Sequence record: NC_105587.1
From: Escherichia phage EC100
Direction: 5' to 3' (one strand)
Length of the DNA: 64,000 nt
Shown: positions 29,162 to 34,101 of the stretch, piece by piece
Position numbering within the stretch: position 1 is the stretch's first letter
How the letters are laid out: every line of letters starts with the position of its first letter
Program-made: the position numbers and the translations under genes
The notes under the pieces: generated by a model
What the model saw: the letters and a program-made list of their open reading frames with translations, nothing else
Databases searched by the model: none
Told to the model about the DNA's origin: nothing

Positions 29162-29326
29162 ATTTCAACGGGATTTCTTTTTCAATAACAGGAGACTTAT
29201 CAGTCATAACTGTCATTGCCATTTGTTGTAGAAATTCAAAGGTGAAGGCTACACGTTCTTCACCAATCTCTACTTCGACACGTTTCTTTTGTTTATCGAT
29301 CTTGACTTTTAGGTTATCAGCCATCT
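29162..29326 (-). CDS. small hypothetical protein
   Basis: ~54-aa ORF found manually, start overlaps upstream gene end. Confidence 0.35.
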
Positions 29327-29538
29327 TCGGGTTCTCGTTGCTGCGCTACTTCTAGCCAGTCTGGTAGAAGAAACTTTGTACGAAATTCTTCGTAAGTTTC
29401 TTTGGGATAAAAGCTAAAACCTCCTTTTTCGTCATTCAGGATAACAGAGCCGTCAGTTTGTTCATATGCTCGGTATGTTTCTCCAATAACAATAACTCGT
29501 TTATCGGTACTTTTATTACGAAATTCAAAAACGTGCAT
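29317..29538 (-). CDS. hypothetical protein
   Basis: 73-aa ORF. Confidence 0.45.
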   Translation of the reverse strand: MHVFEFRNKSTDKRVIVIGETYRAYEQTDGSVILNDEKGGFSFYPKETYEEFRTKFLLPDWLEVAQQREPEDG

Positions 29539-29554
29539 AACATTTCCTTAAAGT

Positions 29555-29630
29555 TGGAGCGGCTAGAGGGAATCGAACCCTACTCAGCGAGGCTTGGAAG
29601 GCCTGCGACACAACCCGTGTGCTTAACCGC
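29555..29630 (-). tRNA. tRNA-Gly (TCC)
   Basis: acceptor stem, anticodon loop CTTCCAA. Confidence 0.6.
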
Positions 29631-29638
29631 TTATTATT

Positions 29639-29714
29639 TGGCTGGAGAAGGAGGAATCGAACCTACCATTAACGGAGTCAAAGGCCGCTGTGCTAACCGT
29701 TACACTACTCTCCA
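29639..29714 (-). tRNA. tRNA-Gln (TTG)
   Basis: U1-A72 acceptor start typical of tRNA-Gln, anticodon loop with TTG. Confidence 0.6.
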
Positions 29715-29720
29715 ATTATT

Positions 29721-29796
29721 TGGCTGGGATGCCACGGATCGAACGTGGAACCTTCGGAGTCAGAGGCCGACGATCTGCCAATTGATCTACATCCCA
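29721..29796 (-). tRNA. tRNA-Gln (CTG)
   Basis: acceptor TGGGATG/CATCCCA, anticodon loop CTCTGAC. Confidence 0.6.
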
Positions 29797-29808
29797 ATAA
29801 TTTTTATT

Positions 29809-30003
29809 CTACGGAAAAATTGTTGTTGGCTCAGATTCTTCCAAACGTTTGCCTTCATGATCTACTCGAATAACTCCGCATCCCTCGCAAATCACAACAG
29901 CACCGTAGCCTTCTTTAACTTCAGCTTCTGTAATCAAACCAGAAAGATCACCAGTATCTCTGCCCCACATATCAATGGAGCATTGTTTGCAGAAATCAGC
30001 CAT
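29809..30003 (-). CDS. small Cys-rich (zinc-ribbon-like) protein
   Basis: 64 aa; 'CKQCS...CEGCG'. Confidence 0.45.
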   Translation of the reverse strand: MADFCKQCSIDMWGRDTGDLSGLITEAEVKEGYGAVVICEGCGVIRVDHEGKRLEESEPTTIFP

Positions 30004-30028
30004 ATTTTATTTCCTATTTAAGTTAATT

Positions 30029-30105
30029 TGGGGTGGCTAGTGGAATTCGAATCCACATAGGCCTGATTCACAATCAGGATCATTAACCAATTATGATATA
30101 GCCAC
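30029..30105 (-). tRNA. tRNA-His (GTG)
   Basis: acceptor GTGGCTA/TAGCCAC, anticodon arm CCTGA-TTGTGAA-TCAGG. Confidence 0.7.
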
Positions 30106-30470
30106 AATTGAAAACTCGCAGGGTTAGCGAAACCTTCCTCAATTAGCATGTTCTAGAATACTAATCAAGTTATCTCCTATTGCACGCAGCTCAAGACGAG
30201 TACGAATTTTCAATTGTGGCGGCTCTCAGAAACTCTTCTACTCTAGCCTTAGCAGCTTACTCCCGAACGCATGTCGGGGAAGTCTTACTAAGCGCATCAA
30301 ATAGCACCGTTACACTTTGAGCCATTGGTGTATCAAGAAGCAGAAGGACTTGAACCTTCACGAGATAGACCATTTATCTCAGCCGCTTTATGAGGTATGT
30401 TGCAGGGAGTGGATGTTCCCTATAAACCTTTTAGGCAGCCCCGTCTACCGATTCCGGCATACTTCAAGAT

Positions 30471-30565
30471 TTGGAGGTAGGTAAGGGGATCGAACCCTTA
30501 CACCGTATCACTACGATCAACCGATTTCAAGTCGGAGTCCAGCGCCAGCCATTGGATTGACCTAC
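30471..30565 (-). tRNA. tRNA-Ser (TGA), class II
   Basis: acceptor GGTAGGT/ACCTACC, long variable arm, anticodon loop CTTGAAA. Confidence 0.6.
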
Positions 30566-30577
30566 CATATAAGTTAT

Positions 30578-30668
30578 TTGGCGGAAGAGGAGGGATTTGA
30601 ACTCTCAAGCCGTTTTACCAGTCAGCCACTTTCCAAGCGGTTTTCGTCGCCAATTCGATTTGCTCTTC
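30578..30668 (-). tRNA. tRNA-Ser (GGA), class II
   Basis: acceptor GGAAGAG/CTCTTCC, long variable arm, anticodon loop TTGGAAA. Confidence 0.5.
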
Positions 30669-30689
30669 CAATAATAAGATGATGCCTCT

Positions 30690-30765
30690 ATCACACCAGG
30701 CAGTTACGCCTCGCTGGGATTCGAACCCATTAAAACAGCTCAACCGAGATAGTAGGTTTAATTTA
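30690..30765 (-). tRNA. tRNA-like element, identity unresolved
   Basis: canonical T-arm but no pairing acceptor partner found by hand. Confidence 0.3.
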
Positions 30766-30771
30766 CTCTGA

Positions 30772-30848
30772 CCATCAAATTTGGTGCGTGACAAGGGATT
30801 CGAACCCTCAAAACCCGACTTCTAAGGACGGTATGTATGCCAATTCCA
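30772..30848 (-). tRNA. tRNA, anticodon probably TAG (Leu?)
   Basis: acceptor GCGTGAT/GTCACGC and T-arm clear; D-arm atypical. Confidence 0.45.
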
Positions 30849-30853
30849 TCAAT

Positions 30854-30928
30854 CACGCGTATTTGGTGGACAAAGAGGGACTCGAACCCTCCCTACCAGA
30901 TTGCAAGTCTGGTGTGCTCCCGCTGACA
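30854..30928 (-). tRNA. tRNA-Ala (TGC)
   Basis: acceptor with G3-U70, anticodon arm CCAGA-CTTGCAA-TCTGG. Confidence 0.7.
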
Positions 30929-31176
30929 CTATTCGCCCAAATTCTTTAGTTTACTAAGGCTATTAGCTCGGCGTAACTACAGCACCTTCGCTTCGAGCGG
31001 AAGGAACTGCGTCATCTCGCAAACCCAATACACTATTCAGTTGCCACTGAATCTAGTGGACTAATCTAGAACTTCTCCCAAATCGTAGGGATCGTGCTTT
31101 TTGGCAGCCAGTCCTAGGTCGAGCTAATACCTTAGTGAACTATGATGAGGATTTCTCCTCATCAATTTATATAAAT

Positions 31177-31205
31177 ATTATAACAAGAAATTAAGCATCA
31201 AGCAA
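31177..31205 (-). promoter_or_regulatory. strong sigma70 early promoter
   Basis: TTGCTT/17 bp/TATAAT; reads into a tRNA/small-ORF block. Confidence 0.6.
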
Positions 31206-31223
31206 CTGCGTTTTTCTTGAAAT

Positions 31224-31302
31224 TGGTAGATCGCCTGGGACTCGAACCCAGAACCTTCCGATTAAAAGTCGGATGCTACTAAACCTATTGAGCTAGCGAT
31301 CT
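31224..31302 (-). tRNA. tRNA-Lys (TTT)
   Basis: acceptor AGATCGC/GCGATCT, anticodon arm TCCGA-CTTTTAA-TCGGA. Confidence 0.65.
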
Positions 31303-31303
31303 A

Positions 31304-31471
31304 TTAGTAACCATTGTATACTTCTTTAATAGAGTGAACTTTCAAGTAAGGGTGATTAGTATTAAACTCTGACATTACTTCATCCCAATTTTTACCATAA
31401 TGGGCAAGTAAAGATTTTGATGTATTCTTACCTAAACGTTTGTCACTTACTACTAATCGAAATACTTTCAT
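31304..31471 (-). CDS. small hypothetical protein
   Basis: ~55-aa ORF found manually between tRNA-Lys and tRNA-Met. Confidence 0.35.
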   Translation of the reverse strand: MKVFRLVVSDKRLGKNTSKSLLAHYGKNWDEVMSEFNTNHPYLKVHSIKEVYNGY

Positions 31472-31491
31472 TTCGAAATCCTCTATTAAAA

Positions 31492-31569
31492 TGGAAGCGG
31501 GTGCAGGAATCGAACCTACCTCTTTCTAGCTTATGAGACTAGCGATCTCTACCAGAGATCTAACCCGCA
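31492..31569 (-). tRNA. tRNA-Met/fMet/Ile2 (CAT)
   Basis: T-arm and anticodon arm CTAGT-CTCATAA-GCTAG; 5' acceptor register uncertain by 1 nt. Confidence 0.55.
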
Positions 31570-31575
31570 GTTGTT

Positions 31576-31653
31576 TGGTCTCCGTGGGAGGATTTGAACC
31601 CCCGACCCTATCGCCCCAAACGAAACGCTCTGGCCAAACTGAGCTACACGGAG
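31576..31653 (-). tRNA. tRNA-Pro (TGG)
   Basis: acceptor CTCCGTG/CACGGAG, anticodon loop TTTGGGG. Confidence 0.6.
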
Positions 31654-31814
31654 AATATTATTTCTTCAACCACAACAAAGATAAGCCCAGCATACTAAAG
31701 CTGCTAACTAATCCAATACATTTTTCTTCTATAGTAAAAGTATCTAGATTAAATGCTGTTATAGCTATTGGTATACACCATAATGCCATAAAAACTTGAG
31801 CTATCTTGTGTTTC
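31653..31814 (-). CDS. small membrane protein
   Basis: ~53-aa hydrophobic ORF found manually; promoter upstream. Confidence 0.4.
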
Positions 31815-31848
31815 ATTTTGCTTTCCTTCTCTTCACTTTATAAAATAT

Positions 31849-31877
31849 ATTATACAGAGAATTAAGCATAATAGCAA
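31849..31877 (-). promoter_or_regulatory. strong sigma70 early promoter
   Basis: TTGCTA/17 bp/TATAAT. Confidence 0.6.
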
Positions 31878-32269
31878 ATAAATTTTTAATAAATTTACTT
31901 ATTGTGTAGGCCACCTGGAGGCTATGAACCCCACGGCTGACAAAGAAGTTTGCGAGACCTCTCTTAAATGCCAGAATAGACCCGCCGATCTATCGGAACC
32001 TACATAATAAGTAAACTTTATAGTGTCATTCTAGACAGGACTCGAACCTGTTATCACTTGTGCGGACTTACGAGAACCATTCTTTCACTCGAATCGAACG
32101 AGCTTCTGCCCTCGCCAAGCTGGTTTCCCCATCAACCACGCTAGAATGTTTGATTGTTTTCAGTGCAAGAGTCCGAGTCTTGGACACGACCGCTTCGCAA
32201 GTACATAGGCAGCTTATCATGAGTCAGCACTTCCGAATTGCTAGCTCCGTGTTCTGCACTGAAATTTTG

Positions 32270-32617
32270 TTAATTTAATAGTAATGTATGATCTACTTCA
32301 CCATTAATTGTTCGGCATTCCTCTGGAATTGCTGGTGTAGTCTTATATTCCCACCATTCAGAACCATCATATTCACCACGTTCTAACCAAGTTCCATCAG
32401 TAAACCATACGTTACCATAAAGCAATTGTCCACCGAAACCAGAATCATATTTAAAGTCTAGATTATTTAGAAAATCTTCAATATCTTTTTCTGTATAACC
32501 TACGGGTAATACCCAAACTTCTTTGTCCCCATAATAACCGAATTCTATTTTAATACACTTAATTTCAGAATTAATATTCTTTAGGGCAAGTAATAATTCT
32601 TCTTTAGCATTAATCAT
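32270..32617 (-). CDS. hypothetical protein
   Basis: 115-aa ORF. Confidence 0.5.
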   Translation of the reverse strand: MINAKEELLLALKNINSEIKCIKIEFGYYGDKEVWVLPVGYTEKDIEDFLNNLDFKYDSGFGGQLLYGNVWFTDGTWLERGEYDGSEWWEYKTTPAIPEECRTINGEVDHTLLLN

Positions 32618-33168: not shown

Positions 33169-33270
33169 GCTTGTTTCCTCAGTTATTAATGAAAATGGTA
33201 TCTGTGGCTGGATTCGATGTCAGCAATGATAGCTGGTTGGCTACCGGTTTACTTAACTCTACACAGAATT

Positions 33271-34015: not shown

Positions 34016-34101
34016 AAATTTTGGCAGGGGTAAAGGTATTCGAAACCTTTTCATGGGTTTTGGAGGCCCATTTGCAACCTATGCGTACCCCAATTATTAA
34101 T

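What the first reader, a model, noticed from the sequence alone, without database searches (positions are those of the whole stretch)
30104..30470. 370-nt tRNA-free gap inside the tRNA cluster with a canonical T-arm hairpin
No ORF of 60 aa or more and no complete tRNA fit here. The segment nevertheless contains a perfect T-arm-like hairpin (GAAGG-ACTTGAA-CCTTC at ~30342-30358) and a 6-bp hairpin (GAGATA...TATCTC at ~30361-30379). This may be a tRNA remnant or a stable non-coding RNA; as I recall, T5 has been reported to make low-molecular-weight RNAs of unknown function from this region.
Basis: inference. Interest (0 to 1): 0.45.

Follow-up and report, generated by a model that had tools for sequence, protein, structure and literature searches.

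The report
Known T5 small stable RNAs

Summary
The window is Escherichia phage EC122, a T5-like Tequintavirus. All its tRNAs lie on the minus strand. The gap 30106-30475, between tRNA-His and tRNA-Ser(UGA), aligns end to end with three misc_RNA features annotated in the T5 and BF23 GenBank records:
- RNAIII at window 30107-30212
- RNAI at 30217-30323
- RNA1, "tRNA-like stable RNA with unknown functions", at 30324-30468

Both hairpins are real and belong to RNA1. The first is its T arm (30343-30359) and the second its class-II variable arm (30362-30380).

RNA1 is a full cloverleaf. It has a Leu-type D arm, and its anticodon loop is replaced by a 41-nt insertion that extends the arm. Across 38 distinct homologues from several Demerecviridae lineages, including Tequintavirus, Epseptimavirus and Sugarlandvirus, 15 of 35 pairs show compensatory changes. 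The loops are invariant. No CCA follows the acceptor stem, and no anticodon is conserved.

RNAI ends in GGCUC...GAGCC-GCCA. The RNAIII position holds interchangeable cassettes closed by a conserved stem.

Function is unresolved. A viable T5 deletion removes all three. My best inference is that RNA1 is a non-decoding tRNA mimic that binds a specific partner.

The parts
30029..30105 (-). tRNA-His(GUG), the downstream neighbour. Its 5' processing site defines the 3' end of RNAIII.
   Evidence: ARAGORN; Rfam RF00005, 59.9 bits; T5 annotation.
30107..30212 (-). RNAIII homologue, 106 nt. A multi-hairpin RNA closed by a long terminal stem (UGAAAAUUCG...CGAGUUUUCA).
   Evidence: 99% identical to T5 rnaIII; coordinates. 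MFE -29.9 kcal/mol, z = -2.9. The position holds alternative cassettes in relatives.
30217..30323 (-). RNAI homologue, 107 nt. A rod-like hairpin with a tRNA-like end: GGCUC...GAGCC followed by GCCA.
   Evidence: 92.5% identical to T5 rnaI. MFE -36 kcal/mol, z = -2.0. The ends are invariant in 29 distinct homologues and there are two interior types.
30324..30468 (-). RNA1 homologue, 145 nt by transfer of the T5 annotation. The tRNA-like core is 30335-30466.
   Evidence: 84.8% identical to T5 rna1. ARAGORN -i; Rfam tRNA, 25.2 bits; model R1, 161.5 bits, the only such match in the window. Covariation.
30460..30465 (-). RNA1 acceptor stem, 5' strand (GAAGUA). It pairs with 30337-30342 (UGCUUC). 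The 1:72 position is U.U.
   Evidence: 5 of the 6 pairs show compensatory changes across homologues.
30441..30457 (-). RNA1 D arm, CCG-GAAUCGGUAGA-CGG. It is Leu-type and nearly invariant.
   Evidence: Alignments A2 and A4. The best non-self hits of R1 are tRNA-Leu carrying GGAAUUGGUAGAC-type D loops.
30382..30439 (-). RNA1 extended anticodon arm: a 5-bp anticodon-stem equivalent plus two further helices formed by the 41-nt insertion (30390-30430).
   Evidence: Helices 3-5 have 9 pairs with compensatory changes. ARAGORN delimits the insertion.
30409..30416 (-). Invariant apical loop ACAUCCAC of the inserted arm.
   Evidence: The loop and the GA before it (GAACAUCC) are invariant in all 38 homologues, followed by A (G in T5 only) and C. 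Its complement is not enriched in the window.
30362..30380 (-). RNA1 class-II variable arm, GAGAUA-AAUGGUC-UAUCUC.
   Evidence: 100% paired. Pair 98-110 changes AU to UA or CG in 7 sequences. The loop is invariant apart from one U-to-C change.
30343..30359 (-). RNA1 T arm, GAAGG-UUCAAGU-CCUUC.
30476..30566 (-). tRNA-Ser(UGA), the upstream neighbour. The T5 ORF T5.063 that separates it from RNA1 in T5 is absent here.
   Evidence: Rfam, 37.6 bits to the tRNA-Sec model; ARAGORN -ps90; alignment to T5.

Best explanation
**What it is.** The segment encodes, on the minus strand, three small non-coding RNAs: RNA1, RNAI and RNAIII, in 5'-to-3' order. They are the EC122 copies of the T5 stable RNAs with the same names.

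**How they are made (inferred).** In the T5 record they lie between tRNA-Ser1 and tRNA-His, downstream of the annotated promoter P13b, with no promoter or terminator annotated between them. They are therefore probably co-transcribed with the flanking tRNAs. I infer that host tRNA-processing enzymes cut them out.
- RNase P would cut at the G+1 of RNAI. RNAI has an acceptor-like stem followed by GCCA.
- RNase P would also cut at tRNA-His, which sets the 3' end of RNAIII.
- An endonuclease such as RNase E or RNase III would cut 4 nt after the CCA of RNAI.

**What RNA1 is.** RNA1 descends from a class-II tRNA, most like tRNA-Leu(UAA). It keeps the acceptor stem, a Leu-type D arm, a long variable arm and the T arm, which together give an L-shaped body. 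A 41-nt insertion converts the anticodon loop into a longer irregular helix capped by an invariant loop, ACAUCCAC. It has no conserved anticodon and no CCA after the acceptor stem, so it cannot decode.

**Most likely function (inferred).** RNA1 acts in trans as a tRNA mimic. It would bind a tRNA-recognising partner through the elbow, the variable arm and the specialised arm without taking part in translation.

**RNAI and RNAIII.** They are more likely stable, structure-protected processing units. For RNAI the conserved parts are the ends, and for RNAIII the closing stem, not the interior.

**Probabilities.**
- Identity and homology of the three RNAs: about 0.97.
- Biogenesis by tRNA-type processing: about 0.7.
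- RNA1 as a trans-acting, non-decoding tRNA mimic with a specific partner: about 0.45.
For: **Identity**
- The window equals ON185583 (EC122) at 100% identity with the same coordinates.
- It is collinear with T5 RNAIII, RNAI and RNA1. These are annotated in AY543070, AY692264 and NC_042564.

**Co-transcription**
- All features are on the minus strand.
- No promoter-like site lies in the gap on the minus strand. The only terminator-like hits are the T arm itself and a hairpin inside RNAIII.
- The T5 record places no promoter or terminator between P13b and P11.

**RNA1 structure**
- RNAalifold independently returns a cloverleaf with an extended arm.
- My tRNA-like structure gives 97.4% of cells paired, against 41-52% when partners are slid.
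- 15 of 35 pairs have changes on both sides, against 2-3 when slid and 8.6 +/- 1.1 in shuffles (0 of 500 shuffles reach 15). The covariation score is 0.291 against 0.122.
- The loops are invariant.

**tRNA-likeness and Leu ancestry**
- ARAGORN -i and Rfam tRNA at 25.2 bits over the full model.
- True homologues score 132-161 bits with model R1.
- Apart from two anomalous intron-type ARAGORN calls (L096 'tRNA-Ser', L094 'tRNA-Arg'), the best non-self hits examined (38-49 bits) are tRNA-Leu, mostly UAA. The best hit in the T4 locus is T4 tRNA-Leu at 36.7 bits.
- T5-type and KKP_3711 copies keep CUUAAAA, the Leu(UAA) anticodon loop, next to the 3' strand of the anticodon stem.
- The annotated T5 tRNA cluster has no tRNA-Leu(UAA).

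**Selection independent of neighbours**
- RNA1 is the most widespread of the three.
- In Klebsiella Sugarlandvirus phages it lies after tRNA-Val, without RNAI, RNAIII or tRNA-His.

**Phage-specific**
- A pattern scan found 0 matches in one genome for each of 185,579 bacterial and archaeal species.

**Not coding**
- The antisense open frame is broken in T5-type, KKP_3711 and DU_PP_V copies.
Against: **No direct evidence here**
'Stable RNA' rests on the GenBank annotation of T5 and BF23. I could not open the primary papers from the 1980s.

**Dispensability**
- The viable T5 mutant T5-123 (deletion 29191-32442) removes all three RNAs, so they are dispensable on laboratory E. coli.
- Plasmid fragments of the deleted region other than the tRNA-Lys fragment did not rescue infection of PARIS+ cells (PMC11464382).

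**Limits of the comparative evidence**
- The sequences are closely related (mean column identity 85%), so shuffle controls overstate significance. The slid-partner control is the fairer one.
- The D arm and T arm never vary, so they are uninformative. RNAalifold prefers a different D-arm pairing.
- The invariant loops could reflect tertiary folding rather than a partner.

**RNAI**
- Covariation is weak: 1 compensatory pair within type A.
- The MFE of type B does not form the terminal stem.
Confidence: 0.8

Rival explanations
1. The three RNAs are processing by-products. RNA1 would be a tRNA-Leu pseudogene disabled by an insertion. RNAI and RNAIII would be structured spacers that persist only because their hairpins resist nucleases. 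None would act in trans.
For: - A viable T5 deletion removes them (PMC11464382).
- RNA1 lacks an anticodon loop and a CCA.
- The RNAIII position holds five unrelated cassettes, and RNAI has two unrelated interiors. This suggests their interior sequence matters little.
Against: - A pseudogene should decay. RNA1 keeps 97% pairing, with 15 compensated pairs, across several Demerecviridae lineages.
- The inserted arm is itself maintained by covariation, and its loop is invariant.
- RNA1 survives in Sugarlandvirus outside the original neighbourhood.
- This rival remains plausible for RNAIII, and partly for RNAI.
Confidence: 0.25
2. RNA1 acts in cis. It would be a tRNA-shaped module that recruits RNase P and other processing enzymes, ensuring correct folding and cleavage of the long polycistronic tRNA precursor. 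RNAI and RNAIII would do the same.
For: - All three sit between tRNAs on one strand.
- RNAI has an RNase-P-type end (stem plus GCCA), and its 5' end abuts RNA1.
- The RNAIII closing stem next to tRNA-His is conserved while the interior is swapped.
Against: - A processing scaffold does not explain the invariant 8-nt loop on the inserted arm or the invariant variable-arm loop.
- In Klebsiella phages the RNA1 leader and trailer pair into a 13-bp extension of the acceptor stem. No tRNA follows before a terminator-like hairpin.
Confidence: 0.15
3. RNA1 is a genuine intron-containing tRNA. Record OK272477 annotates the homologue as tRNA-Phe(AAA), or it could be tRNA-Leu(UAA). Splicing would yield a decoding tRNA.
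For: - ARAGORN -i calls tRNA-Phe(aaa) with a 41-nt intron.
- T5-type copies would give a perfect Leu(UAA) anticodon stem-loop if 40 nt were removed.
- No tRNA-Leu(UAA) is annotated in the T5 cluster.
Against: - No anticodon is conserved after notional removal: AAA in window-type, UAA in T5-type only if cut at a different site, AAC in DU_PP_V.
- A Phe tRNA with a long variable arm is anomalous.
- The 41-nt insert is far shorter than a self-splicing group I intron, and bacteria lack the bulge-helix-bulge splicing endonuclease (established knowledge).
- The insert is kept as a helix by covariation, which marks it as a functional part of the mature RNA.
- There is no CCA and 1:72 is U.U. The Rfam score is below the gathering score.
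Confidence: 0.04
4. The segment encodes small proteins on the + strand, as annotated in phage vB_EcoS_MM-1 (46, 55 and 29 aa).
For: The MM-1 record lists hypothetical proteins over the gap. The corresponding frames are open in the window.
Against: - All of them start at TTG.
- The frame antisense to RNA1 is broken, leaving at most 30 codons, in T5, BF23 and chee24. A 1-nt indel separates window-type from T5-type copies.
- The substitutions are compensatory in RNA helices.
- One of these ORFs overlaps tRNA-Ser.
Confidence: 0.02

Closest known systems
Bacteriophage T5 and BF23 stable RNAs RNAIII, RNAI and RNA1 (misc_RNA features in AY543070, AY692264 and NC_042564)
   Same: Same order, strand and neighbours (tRNA-Ser1 upstream, tRNA-His downstream). 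Identity is 99%, 92.5% and 84.8%. Lengths are 106 vs 106, 107 vs 107, and 145 vs 144 nt.
   Different: The T5 ORF T5.063 between tRNA-Ser1 and RNA1 is missing here. RNA1 differs from the T5 copy mainly by compensated stem changes and a 1-nt indel.
Canonical class-II tRNA-Leu, especially tRNA-Leu(UAA)
   Same: Acceptor stem, U8, a 3-bp D stem with a GAAUYGGUAGA loop, G26, a 5-bp anticodon stem, a long variable arm, and a T arm with a UUCAAGU loop. The best non-self hits of the RNA1 covariance model are almost all tRNA-Leu.
   Different: A 41-nt structured insertion replaces the 7-nt anticodon loop. There is no conserved anticodon, no CCA after position 73, the discriminator is mostly U rather than A, and 1:72 is U.U.
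Phage T4 species 1 and species 2 RNAs (rnaC and rnaD)
   Same: Small stable RNAs of 139 and 119 nt encoded next to a phage tRNA cluster on the same strand. The T4 record annotates them only as 'small, stable RNA', with no function given. rnaC carries a T arm, CCGGG-UUCGAAU-CCCGG.
   Different: No detectable sequence homology: R1 gives 11 bits on rnaC. The phage family and the overall fold also differ.
Phage-encoded tRNAs that counter tRNA-cleaving defences, for example T5 tRNA-Lys against PARIS
   Same: Encoded in the same T5 tRNA region, and the same logic of supplying a nuclease-insensitive tRNA-shaped molecule (PMC11464382).
   Different: Those are functional decoding tRNAs. RNA1 cannot decode. 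The fragments of the T5-123 deletion other than the tRNA-Lys fragment, one of which should carry RNA1, did not rescue infection of PARIS+ cells.

Membership tests
T5-type stable RNAs RNAIII, RNAI and RNA1 | Sequence homology to the annotated T5 and BF23 features | tested here: met
   99%, 92.5% and 84.8% identity over the full lengths; alignment.
T5-type stable RNAs RNAIII, RNAI and RNA1 | Synteny: minus strand, between tRNA-Ser1 and tRNA-His, in the order RNA1, RNAI, RNAIII | tested here: met
T5-type stable RNAs RNAIII, RNAI and RNA1 | Accumulate as discrete stable transcripts in infected cells | not testable with these tools
   This rests on the notes in the GenBank records. The primary papers are not held.
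Canonical tRNA (Rfam RF00005) | Score at or above the gathering threshold of 29 bits | tested here: not met
   25.2 bits, seen only in a 381-nt search. Nothing appeared in the 13-kb scan.
Canonical tRNA (Rfam RF00005) | Cloverleaf with acceptor, D, anticodon and T arms | tested here: met
   ARAGORN -i cloverleaf; full-length model match; covariation.
Canonical tRNA (Rfam RF00005) | 7-nt anticodon loop with a conserved anticodon | tested here: not met
   A 41-nt helix-forming insertion takes its place. No anticodon is conserved across the 38 homologues.
Canonical tRNA (Rfam RF00005) | Discriminator base followed by CCA, encoded or added | tested here: not met
   The acceptor stem is followed by U-GAUACACCAAU here and U-GAUAUAUCAAU in T5. 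There is no CCA at positions 74-76. Post-transcriptional addition cannot be tested here.
Intron-containing tRNA (bacterial group I type) | A self-splicing intron, typically over 200 nt, with a group I core | tested here: not met
   The insert is 41 nt. No intron family matched in Rfam at E up to 10.
tmRNA | tRNA-like domain plus a tag-peptide reading frame | tested here: not met
   ARAGORN found no tmRNA. Rfam found none.
Any other curated RNA family in Rfam 15 (for example SRP RNA, Y-RNA-like or 6S) | A covariance-model match | tested here: not met
   The only hit in 30100-30480 at E up to 10 is the sub-threshold tRNA match. The same holds for homologues in L135 and L155.
RNase P substrate (tRNA-like 5' processing) | An acceptor-type helix starting at G+1 with a 3' RCCA | tested here: met
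   RNAI has GGCUC...GAGCC-GCCA, invariant in 29 homologues. Actual cleavage was not tested.

The most novel reading that the evidence does not exclude
RNA1 is a dedicated, non-cleavable tRNA-Leu mimic. It would serve T5-like phages as a decoy or inhibitor for a host tRNA-recognising factor, such as an anticodon nuclease or another tRNA-targeting defence. The inserted arm would replace the vulnerable anticodon loop, and its invariant ACAUCCAC loop would provide the specific contact. Similar Leu-type tRNA-like RNAs with expanded middles in unrelated uncultivated phage contigs (L094, L095) hint at a wider class.
Probability: 0.12. Interest if true: 0.75.

Novelty: already known. Interest (0 to 1): 0.3.

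Why it matters
**Why the finding is ordinary.** The existence of these RNAs is old knowledge. The T5 and BF23 GenBank records annotate them.

**Why the RNAs are still of some interest.**
- Their function is one of the oldest open questions about phage tRNA clusters. The T4 species 1 and 2 RNAs pose the same question.
- They are absent from Rfam, and most modern T5-like genome records leave them unannotated or mis-annotate them. EC122 has no feature there. MM-1 calls + strand ORFs. JLBYU43 calls 'tRNA-Phe(aaa)'.

**What this analysis adds.**
- A covariation-supported secondary structure for RNA1.
- Evidence that RNA1 derives from tRNA-Leu.
- Evidence that it is under structural selection across several Demerecviridae lineages.
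- An invariant loop to target by mutation.

Several T5 tRNAs have recently been shown to neutralise tRNA-cleaving defences. A decoy role for RNA1 is therefore now cheap to test.

Tried and rejected
**Searches that found nothing**
- Rfam scans of the tRNA region, of the gap, and of homologous loci gave no family other than the sub-threshold tRNA match.
- blastn of the RNA1 core, with the insertion removed, against 5,426 E. coli genomes gave no match.
- Alignment of that core to the phage's own 22 tRNAs found no close paralogue; the best was Ser(GGA) at 59 of 91 identities.
- Model R1 found no second RNA1-like copy in the window, so T5 'RNA2' is not a paralogue.
- I looked for antisense targets of the two invariant loops in the window. 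Counts matched chance: 5 against 3.0 expected, and 2 against 2.6.
- A pattern scan of bacterial and archaeal genomes gave 0 hits. The metagenome scan gave 10 contigs with no new diversity; those with contig lengths of 107-115 kb are clearly T5-like or Sugarlandvirus-like.
- Six literature searches and two look-ups by id found no open-access paper on the function of T5 RNAI, RNAIII or RNA1.

**Hypotheses rejected**
- Coding on the + strand.
- A spliced tRNA-Phe or tRNA-Leu.
- An internal promoter or terminator in the gap.

**Inconclusive**
- The RNAI type B MFE fold does not reproduce the type A rod, so a common RNAI structure beyond the ends is unproven.
Full report
**1. Source and observation**

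The window is identical, with the same coordinates, to Escherichia phage EC122 (ON185583.1), a Tequintavirus of the Demerecviridae. All tRNA genes lie on the minus strand between about 28.2 and 40.2 kb.

Default ARAGORN calls nothing between tRNA-His (30029-30105) and tRNA-Leu (30782). Two tRNA-Ser genes do lie at 30476-30566 and about 30580-30670.

No ORF of 60 aa or more lies in the gap. The two hairpins are at 30343-30359 and 30362-30380, one base from the stated positions. On the minus strand the first reads GAAGG-UUCAAGU-CCUUC.

A perfect 5-bp stem with a TTCRANY loop occurs 14 times in the window, always on the minus strand inside the tRNA region. Shuffles give 0.21. This is not a chance hairpin.

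**2. What is there**

The T5 records AY543070 and AY692264 and the BF23 tRNA-region record NC_042564 annotate three misc_RNA features between tRNA-Ser1 and tRNA-His:
- RNA1 (144 nt): 'tRNA-like stable RNA with unknown functions'
- RNAI (107 nt): 'stable RNA with unknown functions'
- RNAIII (106 nt): 'stable RNA with unknown functions'

The window aligns collinearly with them. The mapping and identity to T5 are as follows:

| RNA | Window coordinates (minus strand) | Identity to T5 |
|---|---|---|
| RNAIII | 30212..30107 | 99% |
| RNAI | 30323..30217 | 92.5% |
| RNA1 | 30468..30324 | 84.8% |

The only structural difference from T5 is that the small ORF T5.063 between tRNA-Ser1 and RNA1 is missing.

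The EC122 record annotates nothing here. The MM-1 record annotates + strand 'hypothetical proteins'. JLBYU43 annotates the RNA1 homologue as 'tRNA-Phe(aaa)'.

**3. Anatomy of RNA1**

The MFE fold is a cloverleaf. ARAGORN with introns allowed draws the following at 30335-30466:
- a 7-position acceptor stem with U.U at 1:72
- a 3-bp D stem
- a 5-bp anticodon stem
- a 41-nt 'intron'
- a 6-bp variable arm
- the T arm

Rfam's tRNA model aligns over its full length, with a 45-nt insertion in the anticodon loop. It scores 25.2 bits, below the gathering score of 29.

I collected 38 distinct homologues. They come from Tequintavirus, Epseptimavirus, Sugarlandvirus (Klebsiella phages), Pectobacterium phage DU_PP_V and Enterobacter phage KKP_3711.

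RNAalifold independently predicts the cloverleaf with an extended anticodon arm, and 15 pairs show compensatory changes.

Counting my tRNA-style structure on the same alignment gives:
- 97.4% of cells paired, against 41-52% when the partners are slid by 1-3 columns
- 15 of 35 pairs changed on both sides, against 2-3 when slid
- 0 of 500 shuffles reaching the observed values for four of the five measures (113 of 500 reached it for further pair types)

The compensated pairs lie in four places:
- the acceptor stem (5 of 6 pairs)
- the anticodon-stem equivalent (3 of 5)
- the two helices made by the insertion (6 of 10)
- the variable arm (1 of 6)

The D and T stems never vary, so they are uninformative. 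RNAalifold prefers a different D-arm register, and covariation cannot decide between the two.

The loops are invariant or nearly so:
- the D loop GAAUYGGUAKA
- the insertion's apical loop ACAUCCAC, which with its 5' flank reads GAACAUCC(A/G)C
- the variable-arm loop AAAUGGUC
- the T loop

No CCA follows the acceptor stem, and the discriminator is mostly U. No anticodon is conserved.

**4. Origin of RNA1**

I built a covariance model, R1, from 30 homologues. It finds one copy in the window at 161.5 bits and no paralogue.

On about 0.87 Mb of unrelated viral contigs, true homologues score 132-161 bits and ordinary tRNAs score 49 bits or less. The nine highest-scoring non-self hits I checked with ARAGORN are all tRNA-Leu, five of them tRNA-Leu(UAA), apart from one anomalous call at L096. 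In the T4 locus the best hit is T4 tRNA-Leu at 36.7 bits.

T5-type and KKP_3711 copies retain CUUAAAA, exactly a Leu(UAA) anticodon loop, directly 5' of the 3' strand of the anticodon stem. The annotated T5 tRNA cluster has tRNA-Leu(UAG) but no Leu(UAA).

I infer that RNA1 descends from a tRNA-Leu(UAA) that acquired a roughly 40-nt hairpin insertion at the 5' side of its anticodon loop and was then retained for another purpose. From memory, not checked here, the D-arm sequence is nearly identical to that of E. coli tRNA-Leu. blastn found no E. coli match to the RNA1 core.

**5. RNAI and RNAIII**

RNAI has invariant ends, GGCUCAAAGWGUAACGGUGC...GAGUUUCKGAGAGCC-GCCA. This is an acceptor-like stem followed by RCCA, the motif recognised by bacterial RNase P (established knowledge).

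Its interior comes in two unrelated versions of 107 and 100 nt. Within the 107-nt type the rod-like fold is compatible with nearly all substitutions, but only one pair is compensated. The 100-nt type does not give the same MFE.

The RNAIII position holds at least five unrelated cassettes. The spacers between the CCA of RNAI and tRNA-His measure 33, 68, 111, 126 and 138 nt. Each is closed by a long stem that begins AAUUGA...UCAAUU and co-varies further in. Some Epseptimavirus phages have an extra cassette of about 115 nt between RNA1 and RNAI.

So for RNAI the ends are conserved, and for RNAIII the closing stem. I read these two RNAs as processing-defined, nuclease-resistant units.

The annotated T5 RNAIII ends leave a 2-nt 3' overhang on the closing stem. 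This is compatible with RNase III cutting on the 5' side and RNase P cutting at tRNA-His on the 3' side. That is an inference only.

**6. Transcription context**

No promoter-like site lies in the gap on the minus strand. The terminator-like hits there are the RNA1 T arm and an RNAIII hairpin.

The T5 record places this block in the unit downstream of promoter P13b. No promoter or terminator is annotated before P11.

**7. Function**

RNA1 is the most widely distributed of the three RNAs. In Klebsiella Sugarlandvirus phages it sits after tRNA-Val, with no RNAI, RNAIII or tRNA-His, and is followed by a terminator-like hairpin. Its leader and trailer there pair into an extended acceptor helix.

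These features argue for a specific trans interaction, and against a decaying pseudogene or a pure processing scaffold:
- structural selection on the whole body and on the inserted arm
- invariant loop sequences
- independence from the original neighbours
- absence from one genome for each of 185,579 bacterial and archaeal species

RNA1 cannot decode. It has no anticodon loop, no conserved anticodon and no CCA.

The segment is also not coding. The antisense frame is broken in T5-type and other copies, and a 1-nt indel separates the types.

Published genetics limit what the RNAs can be doing. T5-123 (deletion 29191-32442) is viable and removes all three. Only the fragment carrying tRNA-Lys rescued infection of PARIS+ cells (PMC11464382). 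The RNAs are therefore accessory and are not the PARIS suppressor.

I found no enrichment of sequences complementary to the invariant loops in the window.

My committed reading is that RNA1 is a non-decoding tRNA-Leu mimic that binds a tRNA-recognising partner (about 0.45). A decoy for a tRNA-targeting host defence is the most interesting special case (about 0.12). The by-product model (about 0.25) and the cis-scaffold model (about 0.15) remain open.

**8. Comparison with known systems and verdict**

These are the T5 stable RNAs, so the feature is already known. They are not in Rfam 15.

The closest analogues are the T4 species 1 and 2 RNAs. They are also encoded beside a tRNA cluster and are annotated only as small stable RNAs. 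rnaC also carries a T arm, but they are not homologous in sequence.

RNA1 fails membership as a canonical tRNA on four tests: the gathering score, the anticodon loop, the CCA and the discriminator. It fails as an intron-containing tRNA because the insert is 41 nt, no intron family matches, and the anticodon is inconsistent.

Its residual interest is the unresolved function, which the structure model and the invariant loop now make directly testable.

Noticed in passing
window 30476-30566 and about 30580-30670 (- strand): Default ARAGORN misses two class-II tRNA-Ser genes (UGA and GGA), and the EC122 record does not annotate them. Rfam finds the first only as a sub-threshold tRNA-Sec-like hit (37.6 bits). 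It does not report the second at E up to 1. The T5 and T5_ev212 records annotate both.
   Followed up: partly
window 30468-30476, compared with T5 AY543070 30651-30824: The 174-nt ORF T5.063, which lies between tRNA-Ser1 and RNA1 in T5 and BF23, is absent from this phage. RNA1 therefore almost abuts tRNA-Ser(UGA).
   Followed up: partly
window 30958-31129, 31903-32005, 32024-32148, 33196-33268 and 39657-40292 (- strand): The window holds homologues of all the other annotated T5 'stable RNAs': RNA2H, RNAIV, RNA2, RNA3 and RNAX. Identity is 92-99%. The EC122 record annotates none of them. RNA2 is not a paralogue of RNA1 according to the covariance model.
   Followed up: partly
window 32035-32051, 34033-34049 and 40166-40182 (- strand): Three perfect T-arm motifs lie outside ARAGORN-called tRNAs. 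One is in the RNA2 homologue. One is in the position where T5 has tRNA-Trp. One is inside the RNAX homologue, where Rfam also reports a 35.5-bit tRNA hit at 40158-40229.
   Followed up: no
Between the RNAI CCA and tRNA-His in L081, L101, L127, L134, L153 and others; window 30106-30216: The RNAIII position behaves as a cassette site. Five unrelated inserts (33, 68, 111, 126 and 138 nt) are each closed by a conserved AAUUGA...UCAAUU stem whose inner part co-varies.
   Followed up: partly
L128:838-957, L137:838-955 and L154:628-743: Some Epseptimavirus and Tequintavirus phages (SB9, mar003J3, JLBYU43) carry an extra structured non-coding cassette of about 115 nt between RNA1 and RNAI. JLBYU43 annotates a 'hypothetical protein' over its RNAI and RNAIII region.
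   Followed up: no
L094:3619-3736 (-), L095:6045-6164 (-) and L096:6468-6562 (+): Unrelated uncultivated viral contigs carry tRNA-like RNAs of 95-120 nt. They have a Leu-type D arm (GGCGGAAUUGGUAUACGC), a normal acceptor and T arm, and an expanded, non-canonical middle. This may be a wider class of Leu-derived tRNA mimics.
   Followed up: partly
L168:1409-1547 (-), T4 rnaC: The T4 species 1 RNA folds very stably (z = -4.6). It contains a canonical T arm, CCGGG-UUCGAAU-CCCGG, next to a long hairpin. It is therefore also partly tRNA-like, although not homologous to RNA1.
   Followed up: partly
window 30105-30107: In the DNA, the nucleotide 5' of G1 of tRNA-His is U, not the G-1 typical of bacterial tRNA-His. 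The discriminator is C. The T5 record starts the tRNA at this U.
   Followed up: no
L002 (PV577657) 1681-2272 and L154 (OK272477) 494-628: Two likely mis-annotations in public records. MM-1 calls four + strand 'hypothetical proteins' over RNAIII, RNAI, RNA1, tRNA-Ser(UGA) and the spacer downstream of tRNA-Leu. JLBYU43 calls RNA1 'tRNA-Phe(aaa)'.
   Followed up: yes
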